From Fidelibacterota bacterium (GTDB lineage Bacteria; Fidelibacterota; Marinisomatia; Marinisomatales; TCS56): a DNA stretch of 64,000 nt. Shown here one piece after another: positions 6,001-12,000 of the stretch (positions are counted from its first letter, which is position 1; the number at the start of each line of letters is the position of its first letter). The position numbers were made by a program. The stretch is taken from contig JBDRBK010000060.1 in NCBI GenBank assembly GCA_043822705.1, positions 1-64,000 of the forward strand. The letters run 5' to 3'.

Positions 6001-9000
6001 TTCACTGCGGCCTGTCAGGAAACCCTAATTCGGGAAATCGGCGCCGCGGTCGGTAAGGGCGACCTGGGGCGTTTTACTTTCCAGGGCTTCAATAATATAG
6101 GTTTTTGTTTTTTCAACGTCAAAGGGTTTGCATGAAAAAACATCAACAAAGGCATAATTCTTAAGCGGATAAGTGTGGATTGAAATATGACTTTCGGCAA
6201 TAATCACCACCCCGGTAATCCCGGCATCTTCCGGTACTTTTCCTTCGTAACGGAAAACATAGGGGCGGGTGATTTTGGTCATTCCAATCGATTCAGGTAA
6301 CGAATCCAATAAACGGTAGCAATATTCAAGATCATTCAGTTTGTCTGGATTGCAATTGCTAAGATCCAGCATCAGGTGGGGGCCATACCCGACTGTCTTG
6401 GTCATCCGGCATAAAATTCCTTTCATATAATTGTTCAGGGTTTAAAGCCTTTTTTCCCAAGGGAAAATAGCCGCCGACGTTATTAAAAAATAGAATACTA
6501 AGAAACAATTATATTCAATAAGTGAATAATATTTTCCCCAAGGATTCTTCTCCCGGGGCGGCTGGGAGTAATCCTGACTGCCAGGCTGATTTTTTTCCGG
6601 TTCGGGCCGCCGGATATAATATTCGGATTAACGGTCCGGTCGGGAAAAATTTCTTCCTGCGACAAAGTTGGACCGGGAATGTGTAAGTAGCTATAATTAA
6701 GATTGATAGACAAATCAATCGAGTCTTGGAATACTGAAAAAAAACTTTGGAAAATCAAAAAAATATATACCTGTTTTCTAATACATTTGTAATATTATGC
6801 AACGAAAATGACAATCATTAATTCACTTCAAAATTGTCACTATAGCCGACCGGTTTCGGACCGGCCGGCAGCCCGCGTTTTTACCGGATAAATCGTCGGT
6901 TATCCTCGTTATCTGAGGCCAAGTAAAACCGCAACCAGCCCAACCCGGTAAGCAATCCAAGGAAAGCAGTCCTGTCATCACCCCCTGCGTGCATAATGCA
7001 TTTAATTCACCCTCACGCATAAACCAAGAAAGGAGTTCCCGATTATGGACAATACTCACATTGACCTGAAGCCCCCCAGCCAACGAAACAAAACCGGTTT
7101 GTCGATTTTAAATCAGGTTTCACTGCCTTCTAATTCCATTGTCTCAACTATACTCACCACCAATTTTTTTGAAGAACAAAAAAAATATCGTACTCGTCCT
7201 GCCTCTGCAGCCCAGATTTTCCGCAAGAAATTTTACCCGCAGGTAACGGCTGCCGAATGGGATGACTGGCGCTGGCAGCTCAACAAACGCATCCGTGATG
7301 CCAAAACAATCGGCGCGATGGTTAACCTGTCGGCGGCCGAGCTAAATTATTTCAATGAACGGAATGACCATTTGCCGATGGCGGTCACTCCCTATTATGC
7401 CAGCCTGATCGATCCCGATAACCCGGCCGATCCGATTCGCCGCAGCGTGATTCCGGTGACCGGCGAATTAACCAGTGCACCCGAGGAATCGGCCGATCCT
7501 CTGCATGAGGATGGCGACAGTCCGGTGCCGGGGATCATCCACCGTTACCCGGACCGGGTCCTGTTCCTGGTCACGGATTACTGTTCCGTCTACTGCCGTT
7601 ATTGCACCCGCTCGCGCCTGGTCGGCGGCGGCGGGGATTTCGTGTTTTCCAAATCGCAGTGGGAGGCGGCCCTGCAGTACATCGCCGCCACGCCCGCGAT
7701 CCGCGATGTCCTGATCTCGGGTGGCGATCCGCTGACTCTGGCCGACGAACGGCTCGAATATCTGCTGCGGCGGCTGCGGGCGATTCCGCATGTTGAAATC
7801 ATCCGGATCGGCACTAAAGTACCGGCCGTTCTACCACAGCGGATTACACTGTCCCTGACGCGGATGTTGAAAAAATATCACCCGCTCTGGATCAGTCTGA
7901 ATTTCATGCATCCGCGGGAGCTGACCCCGGAAGCCGGGCGGGCCTGCCAGCGGCTGGCCGATGCCGGTATTCCATTGGGCAGCCAGACCGTGCTGATGGC
8001 CGGCATCAACGACTCTGTCGAAACATTGAAGTCATTATTCCATGGTCTGCTCAAGCAACGGGTGCGGCCCTACTACCTGTACCAGTGTGACCCGATTCAG
8101 GGCAGCGCGCATTTCCGTACGCCGGTCAGCACCGGCCTGGAAATCATCCGGCAATTGCGCGGGCATACCAGCGGTTATGCCATCCCCAGTTATGTGATCG
8201 ACGCCCCCGGCGGCGGCGGCAAGATTCAATTGCTGCCCGACGCGGTGGTCCGCCGCAATAAGGATGGCTGGTATCTGCGCAGCTACGACGGCAAGGATTA
8301 TTTCTATCCCGATCCCAAGCCGTTGCGACGTCAGCAACAATCGCCGCCGAACGGGTGCTGATTCGATGCCCGGACGCAAACAAAAACGCCTGACGGTCGG
8401 CCTGACCTACGACCGCCGCTCCGACTATCTGGCGCTTGGCTACGGCGAGGAAGAAACGGCCGAGTTCGACCGTGACGACACGATTACGGCGCTTGACACG
8501 ACTTTGCTCAGCCTCGGCTATGCTACCGATCATATCGGCCATGTTCGAAACCTGATTCACCGACTGGACCAGGGCGAGCGCTGGGATCTGGTCTTCAATA
8601 TCGCCGAAGGACTTTACGGCGTCGGGCGGGAAGCGCTGGTGCCGGCCCTGCTGGACGCCTACCGGATACCGTATGTGTTTTCCGATCCACTGGTTCTGGC
8701 GGTGACGCTGCACAAGGGCATGACGAAGCGGATCATCCGCGATCTGGGACTGCCGACTCCAGATTTTGCCGTTGTCGAAAACGAAACCGAGCTGGCAGCG
8801 GTCGATCTGCCGTTTCCATTGTTTGTAAAACCGGTGGCTGAAGGTACGGGCAAGGGGATATCCGAACATTCGCTGGTGTCGACCAAGGACGCGCTGCAAC
8901 TGGTCTGCCGGTCGATCTGGCAGAATTTCCGGCAGCCGGCCCTGGTCGAAAGCTATCTGGCCGGACGGGAATATACCGTCGGAGTCGTCGGCACCGGTCC

Positions 9001-12000
9001 CCAGGCCCGCGCAGTCGGCGTCATGGAAGTAACCATGCTGGCCGGGGATCAGGATGAAATTTATTCCTATGAAAATAAGGAATTTTACGAGGAACGGGTC
9101 AGGTATGTCCCCTGTACCGGGCCTGAAGCAGCGGCCATGATCGAGCTGTCCCTGGCGGTCTGGCGCGGACTGGGTTGCCGCGATGGCGGCCGCGTCGACC
9201 TGCGCTGCGACGAACATGGCAAGCCCAATTTCCTTGAAGTAAATCCCCTGGCCGGTCTCCATCCGCGGCATTCCGATCTGCCGATTCTGTCCGGTCTCGC
9301 CGGTCTGTCCTACGCCGATCTGCTGCGGCAGATCATGGAATCGGCCTGCGAACGGCTTTGATGAAAGCGCTTATTCTCCACGACACGGTCGCCGCCGATG
9401 CCGCCCCGGATACTCAGGACGTCCTGGTCCAGGCTCGGCATGTGCGGCAAGCGCTGGAAGAACTTGGTTATACGGTTGAAATAATCCCGGTAACACTCGA
9501 TATGGAAACGCTCCGCCGCCGATTGGTTACGGCCGGACCGGAAATCGTTTTCAATCTGGTGGAGTCGATCGCCAACCAGGGGTGTTTCAGCGCCTGGGTA
9601 CCGGCGTTGCTGGATTCCCTGGATTTGGCCTATACCGGCGCCAGTGCCGAGACGTTGTTCCTGACATCAAGTAAATTATTGACCAAACAATTGCTGCAGG
9701 CGCAGGGATTGCCGACACCAGCCTGGGAAACCAGAATATCACTGACTGGTGGAAAAGCATTTGAACCGGGCGAATATATTATCAAACCGGTCTGGGAAGA
9801 CGCCAGCATCGGTCTGGATGAGGATTCGGTTGTAGCGGTTGAAACGGCTCGGGAGCTGGCACACGCCTGGACGAAAATACCTGGCATCGATAGTCTGGAA
9901 TGTTTCGCGGAACGCTACATCTCCGGCCGTGAATTTGCTGTTGCATTGATTGCTGACGGCGATCGGGCATGGACGCTACCGCCGGCAGAAATGGTTTTTA
10001 ATGATTATGCTCCCGGTAAGCACCGGATTCTGGGCTACCGGGCCAAGTGGGACGAAGAGTCGTTTGAATATCGCCATACCAACCGGCGTTTCGACCTGCC
10101 GGCCGAAGATCATGCTCTGGCGCTGACCCTGACCGCGCTGGCCGACCGGAGCTGGTCCGCAGGTGGCGGTCGCGGATACGGCCGTGTGGATTTCCGGGTC
10201 GATGAGGCTGGCCATCCCTGGATTCTGGAAATCAATGCCAATCCCTGTCTGGCGCCGGATGCCGGTTTCACGGCTGCCGCCGAACGGGCCGGCCTGACCT
10301 TCACTGGAACAATCGATCTGATCGTCCGTGACGCACTCCGGCGTAAAAACCACAGGTAAATAATGAAATCCCGCCTACTGCAATTGTCTTTCCGTACCAC
10401 CGTTACCACCGCTGACGTGCATAACATTCGCCGCTTATTGCAGGCCAATAAACGTTATTTCTATCCGCACGAGGTCAAAACCGCCGTCGAACTGGTCACA
10501 GAACGACTCGCCAAGCGCCGTCGCAGCGGCTACTGGTTTATCTTTGCTGAATCTGAGGGACGAGTCGTCGGTTATACCTGTTTTGGTCCGATTCCCTGTA
10601 CGGCCGCCGGCTTCGATCTGTACTGGATCACCGTCCATCCCGACTGGCAGGGGCGGGGGATCGGGCGGGAACTGCTGGAAAGAACCGAGAAGGCCATCCG
10701 GCGGCGGCGGGGCCAACGGATTTATATTGAGACTTCCGGCCGGCCGGTGTACGCGACAACCCGCGCCTTTTATGGGCGCTGCGGTTATGACGAAACGGCG
10801 ATTCTACCGGAATTTTATGGTCCCGATGACGATAAATTCATCTATTCTAAACGAATGAGCGAGGCGGCTGAACAACAATAATCTGATCTGTTATATCGGC
10901 AATCAGTTGTTGATATTTATCTTCCGCCGGACGGAACTTTCACCGACTCAAACCGGTTAATAGCTGCCCCGGTCAGTTGCTACTGAAATGGAAAACTAAT
11001 GGAAAGTTTTTTTGATTCTACTCTGTTCCACTGGGTGATTCTGCCGCTGCTGATTTTTCTGGCGCGAATCCTCGATGTATCGATCGGTACGGTACGGATT
11101 ATTTTTGTATCCCGTGGTTTGAAAATGATGGCGGCTTTTCTGGGCTTCGTGGAAGTGCTGATATGGATCAGCGTCATCGGTCAGGTCCTGCAGAATCTGA
11201 CCAATCCGGTAACCTACATCGCATATGCCGCCGGCTTTGCCACCGGCAATTATATCGGAATACTGATCGAGCAGCGCATCTCGATCGGTAAAATCATCAT
11301 CCGGATCATTACCGCCGACAACACCGATGATCTGCGCAAACATCTGAAATCGCACAGCATCCGCTACACTGTCATCGATGCCGCCGGCAGCACCGGCAGC
11401 GTCCAGTTATTATTTACGATCATGGACCGTAGTAAACTCCCGCTTATGCTGGAAAAAATCAATAAGTACAATCCCACTGCGTTTTATTCGATCGAGGATG
11501 TCCGGCAGGTTCGCGAGGGCGAATTCCCCGGTTCGTTCCGGCCAGTCAACGCCCGGCGACCGTTTTCCCGGATCCGGCAGTTTTCGATCATGAAGAAGAA
11601 ATAACCGCCATGTCGTTGATCAACGACTATATCGCTCAATATCTGCGCGAGCTGGATTTTTACCGCGAAGTGGCCCGCATCTGCGCCCAGCAATGTGAGA
11701 ACGAACTGGAGCAGAATGGTATCCGCGCCATCGTAACCAATCGGGTGAAACGCTCCGACCGGGTCCGGAAAAAAATCGAGGCGCGCAATAAAAAGAAGCA
11801 TTACCGCAATTTCGAAGATATCAGCAATGATGTCATGGACCTGGCCGGGGTGCGGATCGCCCTGTACTTTCCGGCGGACCAGACGGAAGTGGACCGGATC
11901 ATAAAAAATGGCTTCGAGGTACTCAAAATAATCGAATTTCCCAAGCCGCCGGACACGGAAAAATTCAAGCGCAGCAATCCCGGTTACCGGGCCGTGCATT

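What a model noticed while it worked through the whole genome (the two positions that open the first line are those of the whole stretch)
7045..10881. Lysine 2,3-aminomutase + two ATP-grasp ligases + GNAT operon, with a GNAT-deacetylase fusion as interchangeable fourth g [...]
kamA is co-transcribed with two divergent D-Ala-D-Ala-ligase-like ATP-grasp enzymes and a GNAT, beside spermidine and homospermidine-type genes; in relatives the GNAT is swapped for or joined by a GNAT-like/acetylpolyamine deacetylase fusion, which this genome holds on C128:22370-24124. The set points to an undescribed beta-lysine amide product under acetylation control, not to lysine fermentation or N-acetyl-beta-lysine alone.
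Evidence so far: Annotation. Of 20 loci (19 relatives plus this one): kamA 17, second ligase 17, GNAT 12, deacetylase fusion 6. LAM_C lies near Dala_Dala_lig_C in 7254 of 25415 genomes. PMC2821294 (passages, call 119) names only ablB as kamA neighbour; searches 109, 120 showed no description.
(Added by a program. Inside this text positions count along the whole contig: contig position 1 is position 1 of the stretch shown here. "Call 12" and the like, gene names such as g00115 and contig names such as C1 are that model's own, and its searches are not shown. The text may have been shortened before it was handed on; [...] marks where a part breaks off. The agent that wrote the report below was given it as the finding of a first reader that could run no searches.)

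Follow-up and report, generated by a model that had tools for sequence, protein, structure and literature searches.

The report
Widespread beta-lysine ligase operon, product unknown
Four tightly packed genes form a real operon, found in many unrelated bacteria and not described in the papers searched, that probably joins beta-lysine to a polyamine and acetylates the product; the acetyltransferase-deacetylase fusion is an optional fifth member, not a substitute for the fourth gene.

Summary
The operon is real: kamA, two non-cell-wall Ddl-like ligases and a GNAT. Of 80 related loci, 76 have kamA, 75 the second ligase, 60 the GNAT and 24-25 the fusion.

Corrections: (1) The fusion (GNAT fold confirmed, plus an acetylpolyamine-deacetylase-type domain) is an add-on. 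33 of 35 fusion loci keep the GNAT; both misses are cut by contig ends. (2) The divergent neighbours are the known speDA-speB-speY homospermidine route, not spermidine genes.

Polyamine link: that route and the operon are both missing from 40 relatives. A distant ligase clade sits in one operon with pdaD-speB(-dhs). But 0 of the 80 closest loci do.

Added here: a codon-selected E-P-P-G/S motif 7-30 codons into the operon's first gene (first Pro CCU in 62 of 69), which looks like an EF-P-type pause.

Best reading: a beta-lysyl-polyamine amide under acetylation control (0.4). The product is unknown. This genome's KamA lacks one near-invariant histidine. The scan noted this cassette on other DNA many times before. 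Ten paper searches found no description.

The parts
7045..8361 (+). KamA-type lysine 2,3-aminomutase (438 aa) with an unalignable N-terminal extension
   Evidence: PDB 2A5H, E 3e-133. Best NCBIfam model is TIGR03820 at 482.8 bits, under its 525.4 cut-off. The CxxxCxxC motif and the R134, D293, D330 and K337 equivalents are kept; the H230 equivalent is Asn (H in 74 of 75 rows).
7069..7080 (+). Degenerate copy (K-P-P-S, both Pro codons CCC) of the family's E-P-P-G/S motif, 8-11 codons after the start; candidate ribosome pause
8366..9361 (+). LigA, Ddl-like ATP-grasp ligase (331 aa)
   Evidence: PF07478, E 2e-23. Below all Ddl/Van cut-offs listed. ATP/Mg residues kept; Ddl His63 replaced by Glu.
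9358..10359 (+). LigB, second Ddl-like ATP-grasp ligase (332-333 aa)
   Evidence: PF07478, E 8e-16. ATP/Mg residues kept; Ser150, Gly276 and Tyr216 positions changed.
10363..10881 (+). Small GNAT acetyltransferase (172 aa), same family as PDB 2R7H
   Evidence: PF00583. 2R7H, E 2e-33. No AblB match.
6025..6426 (-). speD homologue, most likely the arginine-decarboxylase type (SpeDA)
   Evidence: PF02675. Clustered with speB and speY as in PMC10407285 (passages). The only spermidine-synthase-domain match in G000 lies in a 718-aa frame.
5121..6005 (-). Ureohydrolase (speB)
   Evidence: TIGR01230 over cut-off
4108..5124 (-). speY, bis(guanidino)homospermidine synthase
   Evidence: NF002699, 573 bits against a cut-off of 500. 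Not found in 40 relatives.
6427..7044 (.). 618-nt divergent intergenic region (41% GC); a sigma-70-like site at 6669-6697 is within chance; no Rfam match

Best explanation
A cytoplasmic pathway to a small cationic amide. KamA turns L-lysine into beta-lysine (by homology). LigA and LigB each activate a carboxyl group with ATP and form an amide (catalytic residues shown, chemistry inferred), perhaps working as a pair. The donor is beta-lysine or its acetylated form; the acceptor is a polyamine, here most likely homospermidine from the divergent speDA-speB-speY operon (inferred). Two ligases would give two amide bonds. The GNAT acetylates a free amine. Some genomes add the GNAT-deacetylase fusion to reverse or redirect that acetylation. 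A proline-pair pause in the first gene ties translation to EF-P or polyamine status (inferred).
For: Module conservation: 76, 75 and 60 of 80 loci; 19, 18 and 16 of 20 in this genome's phylum. Fusions: of 62 longer LigB relatives, 49 are ligA+ligB and 10 carry a ligB + GNAT join; 5 triple fusions of GNAT-like, deacetylase and GNAT domains. Both ligases keep K97, K144, E180, K215, R255 and N272 equivalents nearly throughout 300 rows, and His63 is Glu in 295 of 300. The deacetylase's best solved relatives are acetylpolyamine amidohydrolases, E 1e-64 to 1e-70, against 1e-36 for HDAH enzymes; PMC11532494 (passages) places bacterial polyamine deacetylases only in that cluster. Ligase genes lie in one run with speB and pdaD in 6 of 20 hand-picked loci, 3 of 40 further loci and 3 of 80 metagenome loci (pdaD). 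L115 reads dhs-speB-pdaD-ligA-ligB-GNAT. All 5 such genomes tested hold a KamA elsewhere. A quick tree puts those ligases far from the window's, so there are at least two separate junctions. ligA, the fusion and speY are all not found in 40 relatives.
Against: No polyamine gene of the kinds queried lies within 7 kb in the 80 closest loci, and speB or dhs lies in 0 of 20 own-phylum loci. Genome-wide overlap with DHS-like genes is 27, against 21.7 expected (p 0.11). The acidic residues at the Ddl Tyr216 and Leu282 positions hold only in the window's LigA clade. The APAH L1 loop is shortened in the fusion. PMC11532494 reports that APAHs also act on acetyl-lysine substrates. 56 of 66 ligA genomes in one sample lack the fusion. 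KamA is below the AblA cut-off. This genome's KamA differs at 6 of 130 near-invariant columns (others: median 1), so it may be impaired. No product has been measured.
Confidence: 0.4

Rival explanations
1. The ligases build an acetylated beta-lysine di- or tripeptide (an osmolyte or nitrogen store, like NAGGN) with no polyamine; the polyamine genes are chance neighbours.
For: The four genes travel alone in most loci. No conserved transporter or extra enzyme among 128 flanking ORFs. Single neighbours include S58, M19 and M20 peptidases.
Against: Repeated in-operon linkage to arginine-to-polyamine genes; polyamine-type deacetylase.
Confidence: 0.27
2. The cassette modifies a protein, for example an EpmA-independent beta-lysylation of EF-P, and the proline-pair motif is its feedback sensor.
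For: G000 has a Lys34-type EF-P loop but no EpmA or EpmB. Codon-selected PP motif in the first gene.
Against: ligA occurs with EpmA more often, not less: 39 of 66 against 36 of 135 (kin not independent). No efp turned up among 128 flanking ORFs. A pause inside the first gene would lower expression when EF-P is unmodified. Ddl-type folds act on small substrates (recalled).
Confidence: 0.12
3. The KamA homologue acts on another basic amino acid (arginine or ornithine), so the amide is not built on beta-lysine.
For: Below the TIGR03820 cut-off; repeated linkage to arginine-using genes.
Against: The lysine model scores 483 bits against 381 for arginine and 416 for glutamate. Both Asp residues and the PLP lysine are kept in 74-75 of 75 rows.
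Confidence: 0.1
4. The product decorates the cell envelope (an alternative stem dipeptide or a cationic group on a glycan).
For: Ddl ancestry; glycosyltransferases or sugar dehydrogenases follow the ligases in some loci; a VanX-like gene lies at window 3284-4057.
Against: G000 has a separate true Ddl on C206. The His63 position is lost in both ligases and Ser150 and Tyr216 in LigB. VanX is beside 0 of 80 loci. No mur gene among the flanks.
Confidence: 0.07
5. Ordinary: AblAB-type N-acetyl-beta-lysine synthesis or lysine fermentation, with unrelated ddl paralogues next door.
For: KamA + GNAT is the AblAB pattern (PMC2821294, passages).
Against: The GNAT is not AblB; ligase-GNAT fusions exist; the ligases are better conserved beside kamA than the GNAT is.
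Confidence: 0.04

Closest known systems
AblA/AblB pathway to N-epsilon-acetyl-beta-lysine
   Same: Lysine 2,3-aminomutase plus a GNAT
   Different: The GNAT is a 172-aa protein of the 2R7H family, not AblB; two conserved ligases and an optional deacetylase fusion are added.
EpmB-EpmA beta-lysylation of EF-P
   Same: KamA-family enzyme feeding an amide-forming ligase
   Different: The ligases are ATP-grasp, not LysRS-like; KamA scores 256 bits on the EpmB model against a cut-off of 369; the cassette co-occurs with EpmA.
Glutathionylspermidine / trypanothione synthetases (recalled, not from a call)
   Same: ATP-grasp enzymes that acylate a polyamine, in some organisms with two paralogues for two amide bonds, and with a reversing hydrolase
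   Different: Different ATP-grasp subfamily (Ddl-like here), proposed donor is beta-lysine, and acetylation is added.
D-Ala-D-Ala / Van ligases
   Same: Fold and ATP/Mg residues
   Different: Below every listed cut-off; donor and acceptor pockets are remodelled; a true ddl lies elsewhere in the genome.
SpeDA-SpeB-SpeY homospermidine route (PMC10407285, PMC13625781)
   Same: The divergent genes at 4108-6426 match it in content
   Different: Already known; neither main text contains 'aminomutase' or 'ligase'.
Acetylpolyamine amidohydrolases (3Q9B, 6PHR, 9GKZ)
   Same: Closest solved relatives of the fusion's C-half; Zn and catalytic motifs invariant
   Different: Fused to a GNAT-fold domain, shortened L1 loop, tied to the ligase cassette.

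Membership tests
Lysine 2,3-aminomutase (AblA/KamA) | CxxxCxxC, substrate Arg134/Asp293/Asp330 and PLP Lys337 (roles recalled) | tested here: met
Lysine 2,3-aminomutase (AblA/KamA) | TIGR03820 score above 525.4 | tested here: not met
   482.8 bits; above the KamA subfamily cut-off, TIGR00238
Lysine 2,3-aminomutase (AblA/KamA) | His230 equivalent | tested here: not met
   Asn286 in the window; His in the other 74 of 75 rows
Lysine 2,3-aminomutase (AblA/KamA) | Converts lysine to beta-lysine | not testable with these tools
   Needs an assay
AblAB osmolyte pathway | AblB-family acetyltransferase (TIGR03827) | tested here: not met
   No match in G000; the control rang in 6 of 14 genomes
EpmAB EF-P modification | EpmA present and EpmB-type aminomutase | tested here: not met
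   G000 is 93% complete
Lysine fermentation | Lysine 5,6-aminomutase in the genome | tested here: inconclusive
   No match, but the control did not ring
D-Ala-D-Ala ligase | Curated cut-off; His63, Ser150 and Tyr216 (numbering recalled) | tested here: not met
ATP-grasp amide ligase | ATP/Mg and oxyanion residues in both paralogues | tested here: met
GNAT (fusion N-half) | GNAT fold with an acetyl-CoA-binding Gly motif | tested here: met
   Pfam alone is borderline, 20.6 bits against 20.7
Acetylpolyamine amidohydrolase | Closest to the APAH cluster, catalytic His-His, Asp/His/Asp and Tyr intact | tested here: met
Acetylpolyamine amidohydrolase | L1/L2 specificity loops, dimer, and activity on acetylpolyamines | tested here: inconclusive
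   L2 aligns and L1 is shortened; activity not testable here
SpeDA-SpeB-SpeY homospermidine route | speY over cut-off, clustered with speB and a speD homologue, no canonical speE or speA | tested here: met
   SpeD activity not assayed

The most novel reading that the evidence does not exclude
A widespread, overlooked branch of polyamine metabolism: bacteria extend polyamines with beta-lysine through a Ddl-derived ligase pair, tune the charge by acetylation and deacetylation, and sense the product at a codon-selected proline-pair pause in the operon's first gene. That would be a bacterial counterpart of the polyamine-versus-eIF5A control recalled from eukaryotes.
Probability: 0.15. Interest if true: 0.88.

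Novelty: new variant of a known kind. Interest (0 to 1): 0.62.

Why it matters
ligA relatives occur in 66 of 201 genomes of one phylum sample, 52 of 201 of another and 31 of 201 of this genome's phylum. A common metabolite therefore seems to be unidentified. The cassette would give a use for many orphan kamA and mis-annotated 'ddl' genes. The polyamine link names specific substrates to assay, and the pause motif is testable with a reporter.

Tried and rejected
Papers: ten searches were counted; none listed a description of the cassette or of a beta-lysyl-polyamine. may have missed because of punctuation. Subscription papers are mostly not held; the Iyer et al. 2009 ATP-grasp survey (recalled, may discuss this operon) is not held. 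No supplements were read. The locus tags were recalled guesses and led nowhere.

RNA: no RNA holder listed; no Rfam match at 3500-12000; promoter and terminator counts within chance.

Long 700-1670 aa 'fusions' suggested were open frames in GC-rich DNA.

An acidic acceptor pocket in LigA is clade-limited, so I gave it little weight.

A cis base-pairing partner for the 12-nt motif was not found. A docking-peptide role is not excluded but fits the codon bias badly.

The tree is the quick version on 62 of 303 rows; one_clade was not tested. No complex prediction was run.
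Full report
Observation. KamA matches the solved lysine 2,3-aminomutase 2A5H at E 3e-133. It keeps the cluster cysteines and the Arg134, Asp293, Asp330 and Lys337 equivalents (roles recalled). It falls under the AblA cut-off, 482.8 against 525.4. This copy has Asn where the other 74 of 75 rows have His, and differs at 6 of 130 near-invariant columns against a median of 1. It may be impaired; the ligases and GNAT look normal. It is the only KamA homologue in G000, and a true ddl lies on C206.

Conservation. They hold kamA in 76, ligB in 75, the GNAT in 60 and the fusion in 24-25; some loci are cut short. 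ligA relatives are in 66 of 201 genomes of the phylum of G047 (record title Deltaproteobacteria), 52 of 201 of the phylum of G057 (record title Bacteroidetes) and 31 of 201 of this genome's phylum. They were not found in 40 relatives of the same family or order. Of 62 longer LigB relatives, 49 are ligA+ligB, 10 carry a ligB + GNAT join and 3 matched ligA only. Among 128 of 144 flanking ORFs scanned, no enzyme or exporter was widely shared. Sigma-54 activators, sensor kinases and Lrp regulators recur.

The ligases. In 300 aligned rows both paralogues keep the ATP, Mg and oxyanion residues of Ddl almost throughout. His63 is Glu in 295 rows (E. coli numbering recalled, the genome's own Ddl used as reference). 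That suits a basic donor such as beta-lysine. LigB also changes the Ser150, Gly276 and Tyr216 positions, so the two enzymes probably take different substrates.

The fusion. Its N-half is a GNAT. Its C-half is closest to acetylpolyamine amidohydrolases. It is tied to the cassette: 9 of 9 carriers in this genome's phylum sample have ligA, and 10 of 12 in the G047 sample, against 3.9 expected; kin are not independent. It is optional: of 55 cassette genomes without it in the locus, 10 hold it elsewhere, 2 have a deacetylase-only match and 43 have no match (many are incomplete genomes). It does not replace the GNAT: 24 of 25, 6 of 7 and 3 of 3 fusion loci keep it, and L026 and L271 end at contig edges. 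One possible exception is G065 (L038): no GNAT in the locus and the fusion elsewhere.

Polyamine link. The divergent genes are speD, speB and speY. PMC10407285 (passages) describes such clusters as arginine decarboxylase plus the homospermidine route. PMC13625781 (abstract, outline and passages) gives the SpeY chemistry. speY, like ligA and the fusion, was not found in the 40 relatives, so seven foreign genes sit back to back. In a distant ligase clade the pair lies in one run with speB and a pyruvoyl arginine decarboxylase. This holds in 6 of 20 loci that I picked by hand, 3 of 40 more and 3 of 80 metagenome loci. All 5 genomes tested that lack kamA in the locus have one elsewhere. A quick tree of 62 of 303 rows separates these ligases from the window's: at least two junctions, with non-homologous decarboxylases. 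Against the link: 0 of the 80 closest loci have these genes, 0 of 20 own-phylum loci have speB or dhs, and genome-wide overlap with DHS-like genes is 27 against 21.7 expected. I did not test other polyamine routes. The link is suggestive, not general.

The proline-pair motif. 69 of 74 KamA extensions carry [DEK]PP, 7-30 codons after the nearest ATG, followed by G or S in 60. The background is 15 of 597 other ORF starts. Where kamA comes first, it has the motif in 75 of 85 assessable loci and the LigA loop in 1 of 91. Where the ligases come first, KamA has it in 0 of 37 and a LigA loop in 17 of 32. Few clades underlie these counts. The first Pro codon is CCU in 62 of 69 and CCC in 6, against CCU in 47 of 393 other Pro pairs of the same genes. 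The LigA loops give CCU 14 and CCC 6 of 20, and 12 of 15 own-phylum KamAs have the motif. PMC8129111 (passages) reports that CCC and CCU are slow and are avoided at the first position of Pro pairs. A deliberate pause is therefore the simplest reading; what it senses is unknown. The window's copy is K-P-P-S with CCC codons.

Rivals. AblB and EpmA are not found in G000. The cassette goes with EpmA more often than without it (39 of 66 against 36 of 135), which argues against a replacement for EF-P modification. PMC2821294 (passages) names only ablB beside LAM. The GNAT family has a structural-genomics entry, 2R7H, labelled a putative D-alanine N-acetyltransferase.

Novelty and verdict. Ten searches listed no description; subscription papers and supplements were not seen. 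Earlier notes of this scan describe the same cassette on other DNA. I found the polyamine operons and the motif before reading the notes that touch them. Shown: genes, families, linkage, fusion architecture and motif. Inferred: substrates, product and regulation. Known enzyme families in an undescribed pathway; interest 0.62.

Noticed in passing
window 7900-7902 (KamA residue 286): Asn in place of a His found in the other 74 of 75 family rows; one of six departures from near-invariant columns. Drift, assembly error or altered activity.
   Followed up: partly
L011:6517-7023, also L018, L049, L059, L076: A CxxCxxCC (YkgJ-like) gene is inserted between kamA and ligA in 5 of 80 loci.
   Followed up: partly
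L279, L280, L287: A second, more classical KamA (51-52% identical to the window's) follows the GNAT in 3 of 20 own-phylum loci.
   Followed up: partly
L116, L233, L241 (methyltransferase and glycosyltransferase-like ORFs also in L110, L117, L119): Polyamine-linked ligases are followed by a methyltransferase and two family-4 glycosyltransferases.
   Followed up: no
L213, L217, L220, L222, L229: ligA stands without ligB or kamA, directly upstream of rsmB.
   Followed up: no
L103, L239: kamA and two ligases are followed by a GCS2-family ligase, in L239 also by an S58 peptidase; an S58 peptidase also lies beside L050.
   Followed up: no
L049:11621-13207 and L243:411-1646: A PLP decarboxylase of the Orn/DAP/Arg family lies next to or near the cassette, on the opposite strand.
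   Followed up: partly
window 3284-4057: VanX-like D-Ala-D-Ala dipeptidase with a hydrophobic N-terminus, convergent with speY; not conserved beside the cassette (0 of 80).
   Followed up: partly
window 11610-12899: Single RelA/SpoT-domain protein with a long C-terminal part, after a DUF5698/DUF2179 gene.
   Followed up: no
G000 C110:6030-6578: EF-P with a Lys34-type loop in a genome with no EpmA or EpmB found.
   Followed up: partly
G000 C110:23680-24612 and C26:605-1537: Two LysRS-like matches of near-equal score, each in a 499-aa frame; a duplicate or contamination (6%).
   Followed up: no
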